Assembly (NCBI GenBank): GCA_045837725.1
Contig: JBEWZL010000237.1
Location: 124,001-185,749, forward strand
Length of the DNA stretch: 61,749 nt
Source of the DNA: Vermamoeba vermiformis
Lineage: Eukaryota
Direction of reading: 5' to 3'
The notes under the pieces are model-generated. The model did not search any database, was not told where the DNA came from, and worked only from the letters and a program-made list of their open reading frames with translations. Of the stretch, positions 246 to 26,280 are shown piece after piece. Within the stretch, counting starts at the first letter, position 1. Each line of letters starts with the position of its first letter. The position numbers were made by a program, and so were the translations under genes.

Positions 246-762
246 TCATTCGTGCTGTTCGAGCTGGCCCTCAGCGGGTTGTTTGGCACTGCCAGCCTTG
301 GGCGCGCCTTTCTTCAAGTTCTTGGCCCAGTCTGCCGAATCAAACTTCTTTTGCTGTTCAATAGTAACCAGAGTGTTAGTACGACTGCTCTGTGGTCTTG
401 GAGGGGCGCAGTTGGCATCAGATTGCAACTACGCGCACCAGAGATTTTTTGAGCGATATCTTACCTTTTTGCCGCCTAACAGATTGGGTTTGGGCAGACG
501 ACCATACTTTTCAAAATATTTTCGGTCTTCTTCGGAAAGATTCGAGGGTATTTGCTGCAAAATAATATTTGTGTTATTATTATTATATGGATAATTGAAA
601 TTAATTGAACGCGGTATTAATATCACATATTATAACATAGAGATAATAATATTGAGGAAATACGCAGGAATGGAAATAAAATTTAATTAAATTAGATTTT
701 AGATTTGAGTCGTTTGGCAGGGTAGCGTATCATGCAATAAGTACCTGACTTTCAGTAGCCAT
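246..762 (-). CDS. Endosulfine / ARPP-19 (Igo1-like) PP2A-B55 inhibitor, 3 exons
   Basis: Exons 762-745, 554-465 and 353-246 splice to MATESQ-QIPSNLSEEDRKYFEKYGRLPKPNLLGGKK-QKKFDSADWAKNLKK. KYGxL and FDSADW (Greatwall phosphosite motif) are family signatures. Confidence 0.85.
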
Positions 763-919
763 TGTGTTGTAATAATACAAGAGATGTGGTGGATTGATTG
801 TTTGAATAGCTCAAATTGATGTGCATTAAATTTGCGTTAATTTTCCCACCAAACACGTGACTGCTACAGCGAGGGCCAGAGGTATGTATGACAATATGTA
901 TTTATGTACAATAGGGTGG

Positions 920-2093
920 TTACACTATGCGCACACGACGCGCGAAGGTCAAGTAGCCAGTGTGGCCGCGCATTTCAGGGAAGGGACGCGTCGTAATGAG
1001 GGATGTGGATGCAGCGCTCGGCGCATCATTAGTACTCGCAGTGCCAGTGTCTGAACTCTGCTCGCGCTTGCGTTTGTGACCGCGCTTGTTGTCTGCAGCA
1101 CTCGTCTTGACCTCGTAGTCGCGGAACAAACACTCCACGGTGCACACGTCCTCGAAGCGCGCCGTCATCAGTGCCGCACTCGTCTTCTGCACCTGTTCAA
1201 TGCAGGGACTGAAGGACACTACGCGCCCATTCACCTTCAGACTCCGCTGCACACTCTCGATCACCAGCCACGGGGAGGGCAGATCTAAGAACGCGGCGTC
1301 AGCGAGCACTGCAGTCACGTGCTCAGTGCTGCCGTTCACTGCACGGTGTTGCGTGTCCAGGGCTGTGCGCAGTGCAGTGCCATCAGTGACAGCCGTGTTG
1401 CCCTCGCTCGCTGTCTCCGCGCTGTTCAGCTGCACTGTGAAGCCACGTGCCACCACATCGCCGTGCACCACGTGGATGTGTCCCGTGTAGTCCAGTCCAC
1501 CGCGCGCCAGTCGCTTGAGTTGTTCCGTGATGTTGTGCGCTCGTTCGCGGTGGTACTCGAAGGTGACCACGTGACCAGTGGGCGCGACAGCACGTGACAG
1601 CGAGACAGTGAGCGAGCCCGAGCCCGTGCCACTCTCCAGCACCCAGTGACCGGGCCGCAGATCCAAGCCTGCCGTGACAATGGTGGCAATGTCGTGCGCG
1701 TAGAGAATTTCAGTGCGATGAGGACAGGCTTGCGTCCAGAGAGCGGCTGTTAGCGGCAACAACACGATCCAGCCTGACTTGCGATCTGCGCTGTAGAGCT
1801 GAAAATAGAGGATTAATTTACTATTGGCAGAGATCATGTTATTGATACTATTGTAGTAATTATAAACAATTTTGGTAATTTTAATAGAATTAAATTCGAA
1901 ATGCGTTGTCGTGAGTTACCTTCGATCCATATTCCAAACCAATCAACGAATCATGTTTAAAATTTCCGAATTTAGAATTCAAATATTGACCGGGAGTAAT
2001 CAATACGAGTTGCAGATTGTCTCGACTAATGTACGCGCAGACCACTTCACCTGCTTTGATGAGGTGCTTGCGCTTCAACACCACGCTACTCAT
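920..2093 (-). CDS. TRM61: tRNA (adenine58-N1)-methyltransferase catalytic subunit, 2 exons
   Basis: Exons 2093-1920 and 1798-920. Motifs PHRTEILY, VLESGTGSGSL, FLDLPSPW, SFSPCIEQV and GHTGYLTFAR. Confidence 0.93.
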
Positions 2094-2902
2094 TGCTGTG
2101 TGTTCGGCTGTGCGGTGCTGGTGAGTAACTGCAGCGCGGTCAGCACGGCCCCTGATGACGCGCACGACACGACATCGACACTCGGTCGGGGCACAGCGCC
2201 GTACAGCACCGACATGAACGCTGCCACCATCGTGTGCTGCACGTGCGCGGTGTCAGCAGTCACGCCACAGTCGCGCAGTGAGGTCAGCTCAACCCCGTGC
2301 AGACCACAGGGTCGGATGGGCTCCACGTACCGCCACTCGGGTGCGATGTTGAGTGCCAGGCCATGCATGGTCACGTGCCGCGAGACACTGATGCCCACAC
2401 TGCCCAGCTTGTGCGTCGCATCGGTCCACACGCCGCGCTTGGTCGGAACACTGCGCAAACACGTCAGTACTCAGTCTGGCCACATCCAACAGTCACGCAA
2501 CAACACTCACCCGCCATAAGCGCGCACTCCGTAGTGTGCGGCAGTGCGTATCATCACTGCTTCTAATCGCTCCACGTAGCCCTTCACGGTGCAGTGCAAG
2601 TGTCGCAGGTCAGTCACGTGATAGGCGCAGAGCACACCAGGGCCGTGATAAGTGACGTCACCACCGCGCTCCGTGGCCTGCACCGAGGCATGGAGCTCGG
2701 ATTCGATGCGTGACACTGGCCACAGCAGATTCGCGGGGTTCTGATGCCGTCCTAGCGTATATACAGGATCGTGCTCGACCAGCAACAAGCAGTCAGGTAC
2801 TTGGCCTGCTTGCCGTGCAGCGCGCAGTTGTTGTTGCAGGGAGAAGATCTGCTTGTAGGGTGATCGGGGCAGAAGGAATACGCGCAGTAATGTGCTCGTC
2901 AT
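2090..2902 (-). CDS. lipB: Lipoyl(octanoyl) transferase LipB/LIPT2, 2 exons
   Basis: Motifs LLVEHDPVYTLGR, TERGGDVTYHGPG, KLGSVGI, TMHGLALN and IRPCGL. Intron 2510-2451 keeps the frame. Confidence 0.93.
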
Positions 2903-3105
2903 GATTGTGGGGAATTGCTCTTGTAGACGGTGTTATTAATTGCTATGAGTTGGTTATTAATAATACCCGAGTTTCAGAAAAGAGTGCTAATTGCGCAGCT
3001 GCACGTGACTAAGCTGAGTTCAGTCGCGACGGGGCAAGGAATGAAGTGGTCACTTAACATCATATTTAAAGCTCCATTTATTGCGCGCAATCATGTTGCT
3101 ACACT

Positions 3106-3306
3106 CTAGCTTTGTTCTTTCTTGCGTTCTTCAGCTCTCTTGCCTGTCGTGAGATCGTTGCCAAAGTCATCAATCTCGTGCGCTATGACACCTCCGTTCA
3201 ATACAGTGTCCGGGCGGCCTTTGGATCTGTTAGACGGACTGAGTTTCATCACTGTGCCGTCACGCATCTGCGTATCAGAGCGGGTTCCGTCGACGTTTGA
3301 GTTCAT
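3106..3306 (-). CDS. Putative 66-aa small protein of unknown function
   Basis: ATG sits in the caacATG context seen at other starts here. Composition looks coding, and AATAAA lies ~25 nt after the stop. No recognisable family. Confidence 0.4.
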   Translation of the reverse strand: MNSNVDGTRSDTQMRDGTVMKLSPSNRSKGRPDTVLNGGVIAHEIDDFGNDLTTGKRAEERKKEQS

Positions 3307-3492
3307 GTTGTATGCTTGGTGATTAAACAATACAATAGCGTTGCAGTTAAATATGTAAACGGTACATGATGTCGCACAAGGGCAATTCACATCTAGCTGA
3401 GAATTCACCAAAATTCTTTGATTTTATGTGGTGCGGCAATAACAACTTTAACTACACTGAATATCTCTATGCTTGCAAATGTACTGATTCTC

Positions 3493-5033
3493 TCAGCGAT
3501 CAGTATTGTTGTTGCGCACTAGACTGCTCATGTAATACTCGCCAGCTTTGTAACTCGAACGCACCATTGGACCACTCGCGCAGTACTGTAGGGAGGTTAG
3601 TGGGCATATATATCGCCAACAGACGAGTATATGTTACCTTGAATCCCATTTGCAACGCGCTCTCTTTGAGCTCCGCGAACACATCTGGATGCACGAACTG
3701 CTCGACTTTGAGGTGTCGTTTGGTAGGCTGCAAGTACTGTCCTAGTGTCACTGCATCCACACCCGCTGCACGCAAGTCGCGGAAGGTCTGCAGCACCTGT
3801 TCGCGCGTCTCACCGAGGCCCAACATGAGCGAGGACTTGGTGACGAGATCTGGTCGCACGTGCTTGGCGTGTTCGAGCACCTGCAGCGACTGTCGATACC
3901 CTGCTCGATAGTCGCGCACCCACCGCTGCAAACTGGCACGTGTCAGTCAGTGAATGATAACCAAATTAGGCAATAACGTACCTCTCCACGGTCTCGAGAT
4001 TGTGCGCGTAGACATCGAGTCCTGAGCGTGCCATCACCTCCACCCACTGCAACTCACCCTGTGACACGTGTCAATCACTCGCCTGCACCGTGATTGGTCG
4101 TACCTTGAAATCTCCCGTGAGACACTCCACTAACATCTCGGGCTTGAGAGCTTTGATGCGCTGTACCGTGGTGGCAAAGTGACGCGCGCCACTGTCCGGC
4201 AATTCATCGCGGTCAACGCTGGTCAACACCACGTAGTCCACGCCCCACGTGGTCACTGCGCGCGCTGTTCGCTCGGGCTCTTCGGGGTCCAGTGGCGGGG
4301 GAGTGCGACTGGTCTGCGCAGGGTCAGTGCTATTTTTAGAACTGCATCACGTGATTGCGTTAAGATCACGTGCTCGTTACCTTGACCGCGCAGAATCGAC
4401 AGCCCCTGGTGCACGTGTCGCCCATCAACATCACCGTGGCGGTGCTCTGTGTGCCACCCCAGCACTCACCTCGATCGATCGGTCAGCTGCAATGCACGCA
4501 CAATCGAGCACTTACCTATATTTGGACATTTGGCCTCCTCGCACACCGTGTTCAGCTGTCGGGGGTGAGTACAATTGCTGGTGATTGCCTAATTTGGTAA
4601 CTTGATTACTGACCTCCAAGCCGCGCAGCTGCGATTTCATTCTTTGAAATTCCGCCCCGCTGGGAATCTGTGACTTGATCCAGGGCGGCAATCTTGCCTT
4701 TTTTGGTTGGGGAGTCACGTGATTGATTGGCCCTGGTTGAAGCGGCGGATCCACCTTGTTCTTGGTTCTGCGAATGTGTTATTTAAAGTTTGATCGTAGA
4801 CTATGCATTGCGTCATGTATTATCAAGTTGCTTCGGCTTACTCGGAGATATAATCATTCAGTTGCGGATCTTGCTGTTGCAATTTCTCGCGGAATGCATT
4901 TATATTCAATTTAGTTGTATAGGATCGCTTTTCATTGCGTGTAATTATTTTTCTTGTAATCTTGATGTCGTTAGTTCAATTTCAATGCAACTTTTGGTCA
5001 ACTTACGCGTTGGATTCGCGTCAAATTAATCAT
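3493..5033 (-). CDS. lipA: Mitochondrial lipoyl synthase (radical SAM), multi-exon
   Basis: Motifs [36 protein letters not shown] (CX3CX2C), [38 protein letters not shown] and [14 protein letters not shown]. Arg-rich N-terminal transit-like peptide from ATG 5033. Confidence 0.95.
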
Positions 5034-5185: not shown

Positions 5186-6910
5186 TTTTTGTTTTTTACA
5201 AACCTTAGCGACAATGCAGATTAGTAACTGCAATTATGCCCAAAGGCAATTATTGGTAGTAAAGAGGGCGAGTTAGTGATTGAAATAGGAGTCCCGTACA
5301 GACCATTGTTTGAACTTAAGTATCTCTCTGAGGGCAAGTCCGTTGTTGAGTGGAAGAGACCTTTTGTAAAAATAATGGCTGTGGCATGCATTCTACCCTG
5401 CAAAGCATACTTACAAAAATGGCCATTCCAGGTGTAGTATTATAGACATGCCTTATCCAGACCGGATCCCCATCCTGGACTGAATGGGAAGGCTCAAAAG
5501 AACTGCCCAACCCTTAAGAAAGAGACATTGAATCCACCAGGGAGTCCGGTTGCTTTCCTGGACAATTTGATCCTGCAGCACAGATGATGGCGCAGCGGCT
5601 TTACCCTGCTTGGCAGGTTCTACAGTACAGCTGCCAAAGGAGGATGCAGCCTGGTTGGTCTGGCGGACGTCCTGTCCGTGGACATTGCGTCTGTCAGGGG
5701 TGCTGCGTCCGCTGAATTTAGTAATTGACCAACATATACCAAACTTTGCCATAAGCACCAGCGGACCCAAGAAAGACTACTATTGGCATCAGGAGGCTTT
5801 GGGCTAGCCGCTGGAGACTGAAAATGTCATTGTTCTGCAAAGAACTTAAGTACTAGAGCTTTGTTCTATATGCTGCAAAACCATTTAAACTTTGGAAATA
5901 CATAGTACTATCACTATATAATAGGAAGATATGAGTAATCGTCAAAGATATTGTAGTGACAGCACTTTGTAATTTTTCAGCTTAAGTATGAACCCATCCA
6001 TCAGCACATGTTTGGTACTACACAACTAGTAGTATTTTATGCAGGTGAAAATGGGTAGGCAGCTGTGCAGAACTCTTGTCTGCCAGAAAGTTTCGGCTAG
6101 CCAGAGGCAGGTAGTGGAAACTTGGGTTGGCAACCATGCAGAAGTCCCAGGTTCAATGGTTACTTAGTGCATAATGGTTACCCAACCAAAAAGTTCTTTG
6201 CAAACCCCCATATACTATCCAAAAGTTTTTACTTGTCTGGGACATGAGACTTGTCCAGGCTGGATAACTTAGCCGGGCTGGACATCTCACCTTGGCTGGC
6301 TATGTCATCCATGCTGGATTGGCCATCCTCCAATTGCATGCTGCCTCTGTTTGGTTTTTCACAGAGGATTGCTCAGCACCATCAAAGCAAAAAGAAGTCT
6401 GGCATAGCATTATTGCGTTAGAGCTACCTGAGAGAGTCTGGGAGGTCAATGTTCTAGCAGAACTTGCTGTTGTGTGTGCCTGGGAACGTTGGCTTGGGAG
6501 GTCTGGATCCAAATTGGAACCTTCTTTTTAGGAGTTGGATCCTGAGGTTTTGAGGCAGGACTTTTTCATGCCTTAGTTTGACAGTGGTGTGTTATTTATT
6601 CAAGCTTGCAGCCTATTATCAATGCTTTGATGTTTTTTCCCCATTATTTTCTCCCATTCGAAGTAGCTAGCACTAGTTGACTCTTGGCTTGCTGTATGAA
6701 CTGGTTCAGAGGCATCAAGACTTTCTCCTTGTGGTGTTCAATGGCAGTAACACATGCTACCATTAAACATTAATGATGTTAAGTGAGACGTACTTAGTTT
6801 TGGCTCTGCCGATGGGCAACAGAGCTGACAGTTCAGCCCTCTGCAACTATCGTTGATGTGGTTGCAAAAGGCCTCTTATGCGAATGAGTCCCATACCTAG
6901 CAAGTATACA
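5186..6910 (-). other. CpG-depleted, hairpin-rich segment with no convincing ORF (candidate structured ncRNA or RNA-derived element)
   Basis: Only 6 CpG in 5821-6780. At least seven stems with minus-strand G-U pairs. An A-rich run lies at the minus-strand 3' end (5186-5197). Confidence 0.5.
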
Positions 6911-12047: not shown

Positions 12048-14446
12048 ATGAGTGACAAACAAAAATCAGAGGAGGATAACAAGCCCAGTACATCGTCTGA
12101 TGAGAAGGGACTCAAAGGTAATCGATTCAATCGAATTCAAAAACAGATTTCATTTCAGTCTTCTTAATTTCCGGGCTTGATCTGCCTCTAATTGCTCCAA
12201 ACAACGAGATCATGTGGTAACGATATTAATACGCTATTATAGCGCGCGTCAAGAAAGCTCTCGCGCGGTTCTTCGTGCGCAGACCCGAGAAAAAAGAGCT
12301 GGAAGAGCGCAACATCCTCCACGACACTGCATCTGACGATCGCAAGCTGCGCGCCAAGCAATTGGAACTGCGCCTGTCTACACGCGTCAGCAAGGAGACG
12401 CTCGAACAGCTGCACATCTTGCAGCCCGGGCCCGAGTCCGATTCAGTCTCGCCACCTTTGTCGCCCACATCCAGCAGCAAATCCAGCGGCGTCAAAAAGA
12501 TACGCGACAAAGTGAATCGCAAGGCCTCGCAAATACGCGAATTCGTGCGCAGAACTACGCGCAAGGACGTCAAGTCCCACGACGATACTGACTTGCCTAA
12601 AAAGGAAACTAGTACACGTGTACACGACGCGCCCAGTCGTCGCGCGAAATTTAGCCGGAAATCTCGCTCGATGCCCGCTGTGGTCCGCTCGCGCAAGAAC
12701 AACGCGTACGTGTTTGGCGGATCATTGCCTAATATGGACATGAAGAATGTGGCGTGCGAGGGTCAGTTGGTGACAGTGCCATTAATAGCCACAGTCTGCG
12801 TGGACTACCTGTTGCCTAAAATAGAAATCGAAGGAATATTCCGTGTGTCAGGCAATCACACGGACATTGAGCGCATCAAGCGGCAAATTGACAAGACGCG
12901 ACAGTATCACGTGATCACGCAGTGCGACAACCCCAATACTGTCGCGGGCATATTCAAATCATTTTTCCGCGAATTGTCCGAGCCTTTGCTGACATTCGCG
13001 CACTACCAGCAGTTTGTGACAGCAGCGACACCTGACAAAAATAGCAGCAATCCCAACGACGAGGAGGCACGTGTCAAGCGTGCGGAACAATTGAAGGGCG
13101 TGCTGACTCGTCTGCCCAAAGAGAACTACGAACTGTTACTATATTTGGTATCGTTCTTGGTGAAGGTCAGTCAGTCAAGCAAAGTCAATCTGATGGACAG
13201 CAGAAATCTCGCGCTCATCTGGGGCTCGATCGTACTGCGCGACGAGCACGAGGACACGACCTCCGTGACCGCACTCACCAACACGAGTCACCAGGCTGCG
13301 GTCATGTCGCTGCTCATCGATCACTTTGAGCTCATTTTCAAGACTGCTAAAAATAGCGCGGCACCTGTCAAACCTGTCAACAACAACACACCGCCGAGCT
13401 CGATGAGTGCCACCATGGGCCCTGTTCCCTCGTCTTCCATGACCTCCACACTGACACCGATGACAGCCACTGTGACACCTGTCAACAACAGCACTCTGCC
13501 GCAGACCTTCAGCTCACCAGCCATGTTGACAGCTAAGCCAGTGACACCTGTCAACACGAGTGCTCCAATGAGTGCCCCTGTCAAAACACCTGTCACTGGC
13601 ACTGCTCCTCCCAAGTCACGTGGTCCATTGCCCGCACCACCGCCACGTGTAGGCAAAGCTGCGACGATGAAGGCGCCTGTCAAGACAGCAGCGGTCAAAT
13701 TCACCTCGGTGGAAGTGCCCTCCAACACCAACAGAGGGCCCACTAATGATAACAGCAACACCGCGGAACCAGCTGCGGCTAAAAATAGTCCACCGAACAA
13801 CACCATCCCCGTGCTCGGTGCTGCCTACCCAGTCTCCGTGGAGAAACGTGGCACAGTGCCAGGCGATGGCACACAGAGCTCGGAGCCCAAAAGCGAACCA
13901 ATGCGCGTGCGTGCCATCACTACAGGCCAGTCTGACAAAGAGACACATGTCAAAGCAGCACCTGCACCACGTGTCGGCAATGACAGCAATCAACCGCGCG
14001 TACCTGTGACACCTGTCAATTCGAGCACTCCACAAAGTGCCCCGGTCAAGACACCTGTCAACAACAGTCCTCCAATGAGTGTCCTAGTGACACCTGTCAA
14101 TACCAGCACTCCACAAACTGCCCCTGTCAAGACACCTGTCAACAACGGTCCTCCAATGAGTCCGTCGAGCAAGACACCTGTCAAACGGCCAGTCGTGCCA
14201 GCTGTCACCCCGCCCAGTGCGAGTGCTGTCAAAGATGCGCCCTTGCTCTCTCCGCCCTCCACGGCACCCAAGAAATCTCCCGCTGGACCCAAATCCCCAT
14301 CAAACACAGGTGCCGGACCCCTCTCCGTACCGCTGAATGTTGCTCCGGTCAAAACTCCCCCGACCCCGCCACCACGTGCCAAAACACCCGTGACCACTTC
14401 ACCGAAAGAACCGCGTCGATCGTATTCGCTGCAAACACTGAATTGA
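12048..14446 (+). CDS. RhoGAP with N-terminal RPEL (G-actin-binding) motifs and a Pro/Thr-rich tail, 2 exons
   Basis: RRPEKKELEERNIL and a second RPEL-like LSTRVSKETLEQLHIL. GAP motifs EGIFRVSG (arginine finger), KSFFRELSEPLL and NLMDSRNLALIWG. Intron 12118-12242. Confidence 0.88.
13350..14200 (+). repeat. Coding imperfect repeats (ACACCTGTCAA; TPVN/KTPV peptide units)
   Basis: About ten (ACA)CCTGTCA units, plus a ~26-aa tandem duplication at ~14000-14160. Confidence 0.8.
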
Positions 14447-14459
14447 TTGCGAATAGTCG

Positions 14460-15762
14460 AGTTGTAAATTATTAAACACACCTTATTTATTTGTACATAC
14501 AAGGGTACTGCAGCGTACATTAAATTGTGCGGGGCATCAGGGGCTGGAGCCTCTTGTGGTGGCACACTGCCAGCATTCTGCAGCTCTGCGTGGCGTTGTT
14601 CACTCTCGTGTCGCTTGGCCTCGGGCACATCGCGTTCACGAGATCTGCTGCGCTCTCGCTTGCGACCACTGCGCTCTTTGTTCTCACCGCGGTCACGTGA
14701 TCGCGATCGACTGCGTTCACGACGATCACGACGTCTGTCACCACCGCGGTCACGTGATCTTGAGCGCGATCTGGAACGGCGTGAAGAACGTCGTCTGTCA
14801 CCACCGCGATCACGTGATCGAGATCTGGAGCGCGAGCGTGACTTGCGCCGGTGCACTTTGCGCTGCCAATCATTCACTTTGCGATTCAGTTCGCGCGGCA
14901 CTGGTCGCAAGTGCATAAAGTTGCAGAAGCCACCGCGCGCACACTCGCCCATGTCGTACTGGCGACAGCGTGCCTCGCGGAAGTCAGTCACGGGGGACAG
15001 CTCGCAGATCAGCGGTCGACCTCCGTAGTAGCGGCCCTTGCAGGTCTCGAGGGCCTTGCGCGCAGCATCTTCTTCGCGGAACTTGACGTAGACATTGCCC
15101 ATCAAATGATCGCCGAGATTGGCGCAGACATTGAGCTCTTCGACTTCACCGAACTGCGCGAGTTCCGTGAACACATCCTCGTAGAACTCTTCAAAGTGTT
15201 TCTGCGCCTCTTCTTGATCGAACAGGGGCTCACCTGTCGGGGCATATTGATTGAAGGGTGGCTGGTACATGCTCGTGAACAGCACCGTTTGACTCTCCGT
15301 CGGTCGGTTGTGCAATCTGCTGCAGCGCTCACCGTGTCGACAAGCACCGATCTTGAAATAGAACGGGCAGTTGACTCTGTGCGGTAATAAATAGAAGGGT
15401 TAGATTATATTATTAAAATAGGAGGCGAGTGCTGTGCTATAATAAATACGTGCTCAACGAAGCAAACCTAAATTAAAATCTGTTCCTAAATACATGATAA
15501 TTTGTTAGTCCCTTTGTCAATAGGAATTATTAATATTAATATTTTATCTAACGCTAAATTAATTGTCCGAACATATTATGAAAAATACGAAAATGGTTGG
15601 ATTAATATGAAAAGATTTTTAGGCATTTGAGAAGATAGTTAATAATGAAAATAATTATTTAAATAATTATAGCTGAGTAAGCACATAAGTACATAATGTA
15701 AACTGGAGCGCATCTTACTTGTCTTGTTCGGTACCGTAGATTCGTTGTAAATGATCTGCCAT
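14460..15762 (-). CDS. U2AF1: Splicing factor U2AF small subunit (U2AF35); 3' end uncertain
   Basis: [37 protein letters not shown], a UHM (NLGDHLMGNVYVKF), a second CCCH finger and an RS domain. No in-frame stop until 13990. Confidence 0.93.
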
Positions 15763-23800: not shown

Positions 23801-24371
23801 GGCGCGTGCTCAATTCGCACCCTCGCTGTGCGTGGCCAAGTACCCGCGCACGATTGGCGAGCGTTCAGTGAAGCTCGAAGAAGAGATTGAGCGCGTGATG
23901 CAAATTGTGCACGGAGCACGCACAGTGCGTCAAGTGTACAACTTGAAGGGCAAGGACCGTCCTCCTCTCGTGATCAACACGCACACCACACGTGACAAGG
24001 AGCTCTTGTCGAGTCACGTGTTCGTGTTGGCGATGCAGTCCCTGGCCCGTGTGGGTGACATCAGCATCACCTTCAACGAGTCACAGCCCCCTCTCGGCGC
24101 TGCTTCCGCCATTCCCAACAGCAGCACTGAGATCTACGTGGTGATCAAGGACTTGGTGGATGTGGACACAGAGATTGGCAAGCTCAATGCGCAGATCAAA
24201 AACCTCGAAGATCAGATTGCTGGCCTCGAGAAGAAGCGTGCGGACCCGAACTGGGAGACCAAGACCCCCGCCAAGGTGAAAGAGGCGCTGCAGACCAAGC
24301 TCGACACCGTCAACAGCGAACTCGCCATTGCCCGCACAGCTGTGGAGAACTTCAAGAAGTTGAAGAACTAA
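20801..24371 (+). CDS. VARS1: Valine--tRNA ligase, multi-exon
   Basis: Motifs [58 protein letters not shown] and KMAKS, plus a C-terminal coiled-coil arm. Confidence 0.96.
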
Positions 24372-24431
24372 TTGCTTGCACTAGACGAGCACCGTGTTAC
24401 AAAATAAATTATTTTCACTTAAGAATGCGGT

Positions 24432-26280
24432 TTATTGTTGACACCACTTGACAGGTCGACTGCTCCACACGTGCAGTCCTCGTTGAGACCAATCACGTGG
24501 CAGATCTTCAGTGCTAATGTGCCAATGATAGACACGACACTCGTACAGCTGTTCACTCGGCACTCGCACACTGCCAGGTGCCACTAGCCACACTGTTTGA
24601 TCCTCTGTCGCCTGTGCCTTGCTTATGACCCCTGTCAACATGTCATAGTCTGCGCCTTGCAAGTCAATGACACGTGTCTTATCGAGTGTAGCAGGCAATG
24701 ACAGCAAGTGACGTGGTGGCATGTAAGTGTGATAATAGATGATGGAGTGCTCGCCTGGGGTCACTGAGGTCGCAGTGCCTAAAAATAGCAATGAAGGGAC
24801 CACACCCGACTGGTGACAGTACCCGAAGAACACGGCCAATAGAAGATTGAACAGCAGCCACACGGACCAGAACTTTGACACGATCTTTTCACTGAACAGC
24901 AGTGTCAGTGGTGTCAACAGCGGCAAGATGAAGCGCGGCTCTTGATGCGGTGCGAGTGACAGCACACCGACACCTGTCACACAGCACGCCATCAGTGTCA
25001 GCTGCCAGGGGTCACGTGACAAGATGCGCGGCACGTGCCACAAAAAGAGTAGCCACAGTGGCCCAAACATGAGCACTCCGTTCACAGTCACGTGCAAGTA
25101 GTGTGGATGTAACACGTGCTGCGCCAAGTTCTCCACTTTAGTGTTGTACTGCAAATTCGACCAGGGCGTCACGTGATAGATGTCTGGGATATGGCCCTGG
25201 AGCAGTGATCGCAGAGTGACATCTGATTCATAGAACAACGTGTCACACGTCACCCACAGTGCTGCACCGCACAACAGTCCTGATGACACGTGTCAATCGC
25301 TGACTTCTACCATTGCTTGAACTTACCTGTCAACATGCTCACACCGCACACCATAGCGCGGAACAATCCATTTTTCCGCCACTGCGCGTACAGCAAGAAG
25401 AGTGGCACAGGTGCGATGAATGCCATAAAAGTAAATCGCGTCCACGTGCCAGCACTGACCAGCACGCCAAGCATCACGTGATTGCACCACCATGAACGGT
25501 ACGTGTCACTCGTCAATTTGACCGCGAGCCACAAACAGACTGCAAAGATCACGTGCTCGATGGTGTTGGAGAAGCCAGTGACCATAAAAGTCAATGTGGT
25601 CCAAGATGAGCCAAGCACCATCAATTGCTGATTGCCTTTTAAGGAAAATCTCTTTTGTTTCATGCCAGTCATGGCGATGTCGTACGTGAGCTTGTCTAAA
25701 TAAGGCAATCAGCCACTCAGTGCTACAAATAGCTGCGTACCCAACACGATTGACAGCACGAACATCCACAGTCGCGGCGCGTAGTACAGCACTGGTCCTG
25801 CATGCAGATCTACCTAGTGTCAGACTCGTAATGCAATGTGACACGTGACTTACTGACTCCCAGTAACTGCTCGACTGCCTTTATTACCATATAAGGTAAG
25901 CCACTCGATAATGCTCTGTAATAGTGTCAATAACATTGCCTTAAATGGCTATCGTTGCTACTTACGGACTGACAATCGAGCGGATCGGACTAGGCAATTG
26001 AAACTCCCACGAGACATGAGCTGTAACATCGAATATACGACCAGCCATCACTTCTGAGGACTGTACAGTGAATTGATAATTAGCGCGAATAATTAGCAAA
26101 ATATCTTGGTCTATGGTCCTGAGATTAACACGCGACTAAATTAAACCCCAACATATTATTCAGTGGCCTATCAACATATAATACCTGGAAATAACCATCG
26201 GGATGAATGTAGCCAGTGCTCGTGAATACGAATAATAGGCGCACCGCCAACAGTAGTAAGTACCACGGCGTAATTTCCAT
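24432..26280 (-). CDS. GPI mannosyltransferase 4 (PIG-Z/Smp3-like, GT22), multi-exon, with divergent motifs
   Basis: Motifs GYIHPDGYFQS, SWEF...PIRS, FSNTIE, LSLAPHQEPRFILP, HQSGVVP and HTYMPP. Multiple hydrophobic segments. Confidence 0.85.

What the first reader, a model, noticed from the sequence alone, without database searches (positions are those of the whole stretch)
2085..2098. Bacterial-style ATGA stop/start overlap between LipB and TRM61
Seen: on the minus strand the sequence reads CAG CAA TGA GT. The LipB stop (2092-2090) overlaps the first plausible TRM61 ATG (2093-2091), leaving no room for a LipB 3'UTR or a separate TRM61 promoter. Established: ATGA overlaps mediate translational coupling in bacteria and termination-reinitiation in some RNA viruses, and bicistronic nuclear mRNAs are known but uncommon. 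Inference: a bicistronic mRNA with reinitiation, or overlapping transcripts with the TRM61 start site inside LipB.
Basis: partly seen in the sequence, partly recalled or inferred. Interest (0 to 1): 0.7.

Follow-up and report, generated by a model that had tools for sequence, protein, structure and literature searches.

The report
Overlapping neighbouring genes in an amoeba
Two ordinary housekeeping genes of a free-living amoeba share four DNA letters, but RNA data suggest the second gene is mostly read from its own message, so this looks like tight packing rather than bacterial-style coupled translation.

Summary
The overlap is real. The LipB stop (2092-2090) and the TRM61 ATG (2093-2091) share ATGA. 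Both genes are intact and spliced. The TRM61 start fits relatives and yeast Trm61, and RNA contigs cross the junction without indels. The organism is a Vermamoeba-like amoeba. Spacing of -4 is an outlier: the other five tandem gaps measured are 158-2034 nt, and a rough scan of 862 kb found no second case. The RNA argues against coupling as the main route. TRM61 RNA is about 20-fold deeper than LipB in two runs of a diverged strain and 2-4-fold deeper in two near-identical ones. One contig starts 26 nt above the ATG. Best reading: TRM61 has its own short-leader mRNA starting inside LipB's last codons. A rarer LipB mRNA runs into or through TRM61. The ATGA is a by-product: a 30-nt T-free leader leaves the ATG's own TGA as the first stop. 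No TURBS-like element or stable structure was found. Minor reinitiation on read-through mRNA is not excluded. No 5' or 3' end was mapped.

The parts
2511..2902 (-). LipB (octanoyltransferase) exon 1, ATG at 2902
   Evidence: PF21948 positions 2-111, E 1e-23; RNA contigs X1-5 and X3-10
2451..2510 (-). LipB intron, 60 nt, GC 0.53 (internal type)
   Evidence: joint 2450-2511 in X3
2090..2450 (-). LipB exon 2 with stop TGA 2092-2090. The core ends near residue 84-87 of the exon; the tail is shared with relatives up to ALxLL, then 5-13 variable residues
2094..2123 (-). 30-nt T-free, A/C-rich stretch: last ten LipB codons and probable 5' leader of TRM61
   Evidence: T-free run 30; other 10 starts 1-16; A+C 0.80 in the last 15 nt; 3.4% of 1878 internal ATGs reach 0.8. 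A contig of X3 begins at 2119
2090..2093 (-). ATGA overlap: TRM61 ATG 2093-2091, LipB TGA 2092-2090
1920..2093 (-). TRM61 exon 1 (58 codons); also the necessary start of the LipB 3' UTR
   Evidence: PF14801 E 7e-5, just below cut-off; yeast Trm61 E 2e-6; relatives
1799..1919 (-). TRM61 intron, 121 nt, GC 0.26 (type seen close to gene starts); holds ATTAAA at 1885-1880, a candidate LipB poly(A) signal
   Evidence: joint in X1 and X3, and 33-35 junction reads in X21/X23. The poly(A) role is inferred
920..1798 (-). TRM61 exon 2, stop TAA 922-920
   Evidence: PF08704 E 1e-64
901..910 (-). TGTACATAAA, probable TRM61 poly(A) signal
   Evidence: the same type of motif follows neighbouring stops; inferred

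Best explanation
Two overlapping transcription units in a tightly packed housekeeping region. TRM61 is made mainly from its own capped mRNA that starts within roughly the last 30-150 nt of the LipB coding sequence and is translated by ordinary scanning from the first AUG. LipB is made from a rarer mRNA from the upstream promoter; its 3' UTR must run into TRM61 and ends either in the AT-rich TRM61 intron or at the TRM61 poly(A) site. In the second case it is physically bicistronic without needing to make TRM61. The ATGA is a by-product: the variable LipB tail reads through TRM61's T-free leader, and the first T it meets is that of the ATG, which gives TGA in one off-frame and TAG four bases later in the other. 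Shown: both genes, both introns, RNA across the junction, the depth step. Inferred: the start site, the poly(A) site, scanning, and the neutral origin.
For: Depth. Raw reads X21 and X23: TRM61 1401-1800 mean 66 and 82; LipB 2301-2700 mean 3.2 and 4.2 (ratio about 20, 14.5 against the best LipB bin); 2001-2100 falls to 23-25 and 2101-2200 to 0-0.3. Depth across TRM61 declines only mildly (102 to 68 in X21, 112 to 94 in X23), so 3' bias does not explain the step. Junction reads: 33-35 at the TRM61 intron, 2 at the LipB intron in X23. Near-identical strains: X3 8.35 against 2.5-3.6; X1 10-13 against 2.9. The X3 TRM61 contig starts at 2119, 26 nt above the ATG; the neighbouring ENSA-like gene's contig in the same run ends about 15-17 nt above its ATG. 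Start context is like other starts. Intron 1 is long and AT-rich like introns near other starts (GC 0.26-0.45, 9 introns) and unlike 17 internal ones (0.41-0.56) (boundaries set by eye, some off by a few bases). Tail length after ALxLL varies: 10, 8, 5, 13 residues.
Against: No start or end site was mapped; table 6 lists none, the libraries are unstranded, and contigs cannot show ends. X21/X23 come from a diverged strain in which the overlap itself was not seen, and the 85% identity filter penalises the less conserved LipB, so 20-fold is an upper-leaning figure. In X1 one unbroken contig runs from 2254 into TRM61. The 150 nt above the TRM61 ATG are GC 0.65, against 0.26-0.49 at 11 other starts, so the promoter would be atypical. 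Four spliced relatives sit on contigs of 1946-2088 nt, about the size of both ORFs (1802 nt here) plus UTRs; a fifth sits on 1204 nt. I could not read these contigs.
Confidence: 0.7

Rival explanations
1. One bicistronic mRNA; ribosomes ending LipB reinitiate at the overlapping AUG and supply most TRM61.
For: The AUGA geometry matches viral stop/start signals (PMC10275272, passages). No poly(A)-like hexamer within 200 nt of the LipB stop, against one within 70 nt for 11 of 13 other genes (motif set chosen after viewing the sequence, two stop coordinates slightly off). GC-rich upstream region. Long spliced contigs in relatives.
Against: RNA over TRM61 exceeds LipB in 4 of 4 runs, whereas near-equal abundance is the stated expectation for polycistronic mRNA (PMC7896298, passage). 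No TGGGA/GGGA/TGGG in the last 200 nt (motif recalled). Folding is weaker than shuffles, z +1.5. No Rfam hit. P0148's tail cannot form ATGA if its end is a true stop. Leaky scanning would have to pass 10 AUGs.
Confidence: 0.07
2. Shared upstream promoter; the TRM61 mRNA is made by splicing a short upstream exon to an acceptor just above the ATG, which removes LipB.
For: It would remove the need for a promoter in GC-rich coding DNA. AGs at 2129 and 2108 score 4.3 and 5.4 on a small acceptor model. The X3 contig begins on an AG at 2119, and short branches can be clipped from contigs.
Against: No such joint in 4 of 4 runs. Three exonic AGs in LipB score higher. X1 is colinear through 2254. No depth at 2901-3100 in X1 or X3.
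Confidence: 0.12
3. Mixed case: TRM61 has its own mRNA, and the read-through LipB mRNA also yields some TRM61 by reinitiation at the AUGA.
For: Compatible with all depth data. LipB lacks a nearby poly(A)-like signal. Splicing of the TRM61 intron would remove the only ATTAAA (inference).
Against: No positive evidence for reinitiation; no stimulatory element found; the overlap is explained without selection.
Confidence: 0.09
4. Artefact: assembly indel, hidden intron or wrong start.
For: One public protein, P0001 (97% identical), is annotated from an ATG inside the intron.
Against: RNA contigs are gap-free across the junction and splice that intron out. The tail is shared with 3 relatives up to ALxLL. 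The start aligns with yeast Trm61.
Confidence: 0.02

Closest known systems
Overlapping and multigene transcription in compact nuclear genomes (Encephalitozoon cuniculi; PMC2803860, passages read)
   Same: Neighbouring same-strand genes with mixed mono- and multi-gene transcripts, very short leaders and transcription overrun.
   Different: Here the genome is 43 Mb and intron-rich, and usual tandem gaps are 150-200 nt. The coding sequences themselves overlap, which that paper calls very rare even in E. cuniculi after start correction.
Polycistronic loci of green algae (PMC7896298 and PMC11892635, passages read)
   Same: Two unrelated conserved ORFs close together; an 'incompletely polycistronic' class with both transcript types exists.
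   Different: Those loci have median gaps of 212-260 nt, near-equal RNA and leaky scanning with few upstream AUGs. Here the gap is -4, RNA is unequal and LipB holds 10 AUGs.
TURBS-type termination-reinitiation (caliciviruses, influenza B; PMC10275272, passages read)
   Same: AUGA stop/start geometry after a long ORF.
   Different: No 18S-complementary motif or stable structure found; the downstream ORF has far more RNA than the upstream one.
Prokaryotic ATGA translational coupling (PMC6728339, search listing and start of abstract only)
   Same: The same four-base overlap.
   Different: These are spliced nuclear genes; TRM61's named non-amoebal best hits are eukaryotic, so the junction is not an operon relic.

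Membership tests
TURBS-type termination-reinitiation | Stop and start within about 20 nt, out of frame | tested here: met
   ATGA, -4
TURBS-type termination-reinitiation | 18S-complementary motif (UGGGA, recalled) upstream of the junction | tested here: not met
   No TGGGA, GGGA or TGGG in 2300-2094; this organism's 18S was not examined
TURBS-type termination-reinitiation | Structured RNA element upstream | tested here: not met
   z +1.53, 191 of 200 shuffles fold as well; no Rfam match
TURBS-type termination-reinitiation | Downstream translation depends on upstream termination | not testable with these tools
   Needs reporters or ribosome profiling
Exclusively polycistronic nuclear locus (green algal type) | Near-equal RNA over both ORFs | tested here: not met
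   TRM61 above LipB in 4 of 4 runs, about 2-4x and about 20x
Exclusively polycistronic nuclear locus (green algal type) | No poly(A) signal after the upstream ORF | tested here: met
   None of the chosen hexamers within 200 nt; nearest ATTAAA at 1885 in the intron; motif level only
Exclusively polycistronic nuclear locus (green algal type) | Few AUGs upstream of ORF2 (leaky scanning) | tested here: not met
   10 ATGs in the spliced LipB CDS
Exclusively polycistronic nuclear locus (green algal type) | Full-length molecules spanning both ORFs | not testable with these tools
   No long reads among the 23 runs listed
Overlapping same-strand transcription units | Downstream gene starts inside the upstream gene | tested here: inconclusive
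   The depth step and the contig edge at 2119 favour it; no cap mapping
Overlapping same-strand transcription units | Upstream mRNA ends inside or beyond the downstream gene | tested here: met
   Forced by geometry: the stop lies inside the TRM61 ORF and spliced LipB RNA exists; the exact end is unknown

The most novel reading that the evidence does not exclude
The rarer LipB mRNA reads through the spliced TRM61 to the shared poly(A) site, and ribosomes ending LipB reinitiate at the overlapping AUG without a TURBS. This would be a cellular stop/start-coupled bicistronic mRNA for two conserved enzymes in an amoebozoan, and reinitiation could also shield it from nonsense-mediated decay caused by the intron 170 nt past the stop (inference from general knowledge).
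Probability: 0.13. Interest if true: 0.7.

Novelty: new member of a known kind. Interest (0 to 1): 0.27.

Why it matters
As best read, it is one more case of overlapping transcription in a compact eukaryote, with the twist that the coding sequences touch and the promoter would sit in GC-rich coding DNA. It is also an annotation trap: a public protein model (P0001) lost TRM61 exon 1. If reinitiation were shown, it would give a natural cellular model of coupled termination-reinitiation after a long ORF, for which the review read (PMC10275272) lists mostly viral cases. I found no paper on this locus: (3 of 4 terms: lipoyl, octanoyltransferase, TRM61, bicistronic) gave 0 papers, and searches listed none on it. 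Subscription journals and supplements were not seen.

Tried and rejected
DNA of relatives: two scans of metagenome contigs (101 pattern matches, 0 confirmed; 0) and one of viral contigs (0) gave no locus, so conservation of the overlap is untested at DNA level. Back-translation of relatives' LipB tails is uninformative: P0147 and P0149 allow ATGA, but so do about 75% of random tails; P0149 also allows an 8-nt overlap (1-3% by chance); P0148 allows neither, but lies on a 564-nt contig and may be cut. A LipB-TRM61 fusion: no slippery heptamer in 2260-2085, no fusing joint, none among 11 hits of 210-2000 aa (weak evidence). A genome-wide system of such overlaps: a coding-score scan of 861,749 bases (about 2% of the genome) gave 22 candidate rows; I judged 21 by eye to be introns within one gene (3 of them also ATGA), leaving this junction. 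The scan counted 213 coding-like ORF ends without a donor-like site; the LipB end was itself flagged by my loose donor pattern, and genes with short or AT-rich first exons are missed, so this shows rarity only roughly. An earlier scan of 462 kb gave the same. Paralogues: one strong GCD14 locus (this one) and two other PF21948 loci in the genome. Earlier scan notes: none found.

Full report
Observation. The minus strand reads CAG CAA TGA GT at 2098-2088. LipB is 2902-2511 plus 2450-2090 (250 aa) and TRM61 is 2093-1920 plus 1798-920 (350 aa). Pfam supports both. LipB exon 2 aligns to two solved lipoyltransferases up to about residue 84-87 and keeps the invariant K and C of the alignment (their catalytic role is recalled). 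TRM61 exon 1 aligns to yeast Trm61 with K9 on K10, and spliced relatives start MNNVVLKRKH and MTSNVVLKRKH and join as GSK-LYS.

Organism. The genome is 43.3 Mb in 309 contigs. A relative 79% identical to TRM61 exon 2 clusters with a public Vermamoeba vermiformis protein, so this is a Vermamoeba-like amoeba. The named non-amoebal best hits of TRM61 are plant, algal and animal proteins. The genes are spliced nuclear genes, not an operon relic.

Not an artefact. Four of the 23 runs listed were laid on 701-3700. Contigs of two near-identical strains show the introns as GT-AG joints (both in X3, the TRM61 intron in X1), so they come from RNA. They cross the junction without gaps. Three related LipB proteins share the tail up to ALxLL, so there is no earlier true stop.

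Is it more than chance? The spacing is unusual: the other five tandem gaps measured in the window are 158, 186, 199, 203 and 2034 nt. A coding-score scan of 862 kb gave 22 candidate rows, 21 of which I judged by eye to be introns in single genes. The scan is insensitive and covers 2% of the genome. The tetramer is not unusual. Four of 11 starts are ATG+A. The 30 nt above the TRM61 ATG contain no T, so the LipB frame cannot stop there. The first T belongs to the ATG and gives TGA at -4 in one off-frame and TAG at -8 in the other. At the other 10 starts, 4 of 20 off-frame readings would also end in such an overlap. The residues after ALxLL number 10, 8, 5 and 13 in the four proteins, as for an unconstrained tail.

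RNA. In raw reads of a diverged strain (X21, X23; unstranded; loose ends match the P0003/P0135 protein type, read by eye), TRM61 at 1401-1800 averages 66 and 82 and LipB at 2301-2700 averages 3.2 and 4.2. Depth falls to 23-25 at 2001-2100 and to 0-0.3 at 2101-2200. Divergent spots inside TRM61 leave piles of 47-100 loose ends; none is listed at the TRM61 start, though 42 weaker rows were not shown. Across TRM61 the decline is mild, so 3' bias does not make the step. The identity filter hurts LipB more, and the overlap was not seen in this strain, so the 20-fold figure leans high. In the near-identical strains the contig depths are 8.35 against 2.5-3.6 (X3) and 10-13 against 2.9 (X1); the tool warns that contig depth is a poor measure of expression. 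The X3 TRM61 contig begins at 2119, 26 nt above the ATG, much like the neighbouring gene's contig in the same run. In X1 the contig continues to 2254. No start or end site was called.

Sequence signals. For an own TRM61 mRNA: the 15 nt before the ATG are 0.80 A+C, like 5 of the 10 other starts and 3.4% of 1878 internal ATGs. The intron is 121 nt at GC 0.26, like introns near other starts and unlike internal ones. Against: the upstream 150 nt are GC 0.65, against 0.26-0.49 elsewhere. For LipB, no poly(A)-like hexamer follows the stop until ATTAAA at 1885, inside the TRM61 intron, whereas 11 of 13 other genes have one within 70 nt (motifs chosen after viewing, two coordinates slightly off). A weak look-alike lies at 2035. 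The LipB mRNA therefore ends in the intron or reads through to the TRM61 signal at 910-901. Four spliced relatives on contigs of 1946-2088 nt fit read-through or merged overlapping transcripts, and one on 1204 nt fits TRM61 alone; I saw only their lengths.

Mechanism. Most likely (0.70): two overlapping units, with TRM61 translated by scanning from its own short-leader mRNA, a rarer LipB mRNA running into or through TRM61, and ATGA as a by-product. The last ATG upstream is at 2175, so a start below that leaves the TRM61 AUG first. Rivals: a shared promoter with a long leader intron (0.12; acceptor scores unremarkable, no joint seen); an own mRNA plus minor reinitiation (0.09); reinitiation as the main route (0.07); artefact (0.02). 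Reinitiation lacks support: no TGGGA-type motif (motif recalled), folding weaker than shuffles, no Rfam match. Leaky scanning would need to pass 10 AUGs.

Comparison. It works most like overlapping transcription in microsporidia (PMC2803860, passages) and the 'incompletely polycistronic' loci of green algae (PMC7896298, passages). It fails the equal-abundance test for exclusive polycistrons and the few-AUG feature of leaky scanning (PMC11892635, passages). It shares only the geometry with TURBS systems (PMC10275272, passages). PMC10980511 (passages) served for background on the group and does not mention overlaps. PMC6728339 and PMC3923131 were seen as listings only. No supplements were read. 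Searches listed no paper on this locus.

Verdict. A real and locally rare stop/start overlap of two intact nuclear genes, best explained as tight packing with overlapping transcripts. It is a new member of a known kind, interest 0.27. The bolder reading, TURBS-free reinitiation on a read-through mRNA, is not excluded (0.13) and would merit about 0.7. Conservation at DNA level and both transcript ends remain untested.

Noticed in passing
window 4899-3493 and 2902-2090 (- strand): A LipA-like gene (lipoyl synthase by sequence reading, 7 introns modelled by eye) lies one small ORF upstream of LipB, so two consecutive lipoate-pathway genes are clustered head to tail. Origin and conservation not examined.
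   Followed up: no
window 3306-3106 (- strand): A 66-aa ORF between LipA and LipB with a typical start context and AATAAA 24 nt after its stop, but no Pfam hit, no Atlas hit and no RNA depth over 3101-3300 in 4 of 4 runs.
   Followed up: partly
window 1-26000: Housekeeping genes here have long AT-rich introns near the start (GC mostly 0.26-0.38) and short internal introns (GC 0.41-0.56); several stops are followed by TGTA(x)ATAAA within 10-70 nt, a likely poly(A) signal.
   Followed up: partly
window 1837-920; protein P0001: A public protein 97% identical to TRM61 starts at an ATG inside the intron and lacks exon 1, a likely annotation error.
   Followed up: yes
window 14446-14520 and 24371-24432: Convergent gene pairs end very close together (a RhoGAP-like and a U2AF1-like gene; ValRS-like and PIG-Z-like, 60 nt apart), so their 3' UTRs probably overlap. 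Names are from reading the translations.
   Followed up: no
window about 5250-6900: A stretch without an evident gene and of different sequence texture between the LSm7-like and LipA-like genes, perhaps a decayed mobile element; it makes the one long tandem gap of 2034 nt.
   Followed up: no
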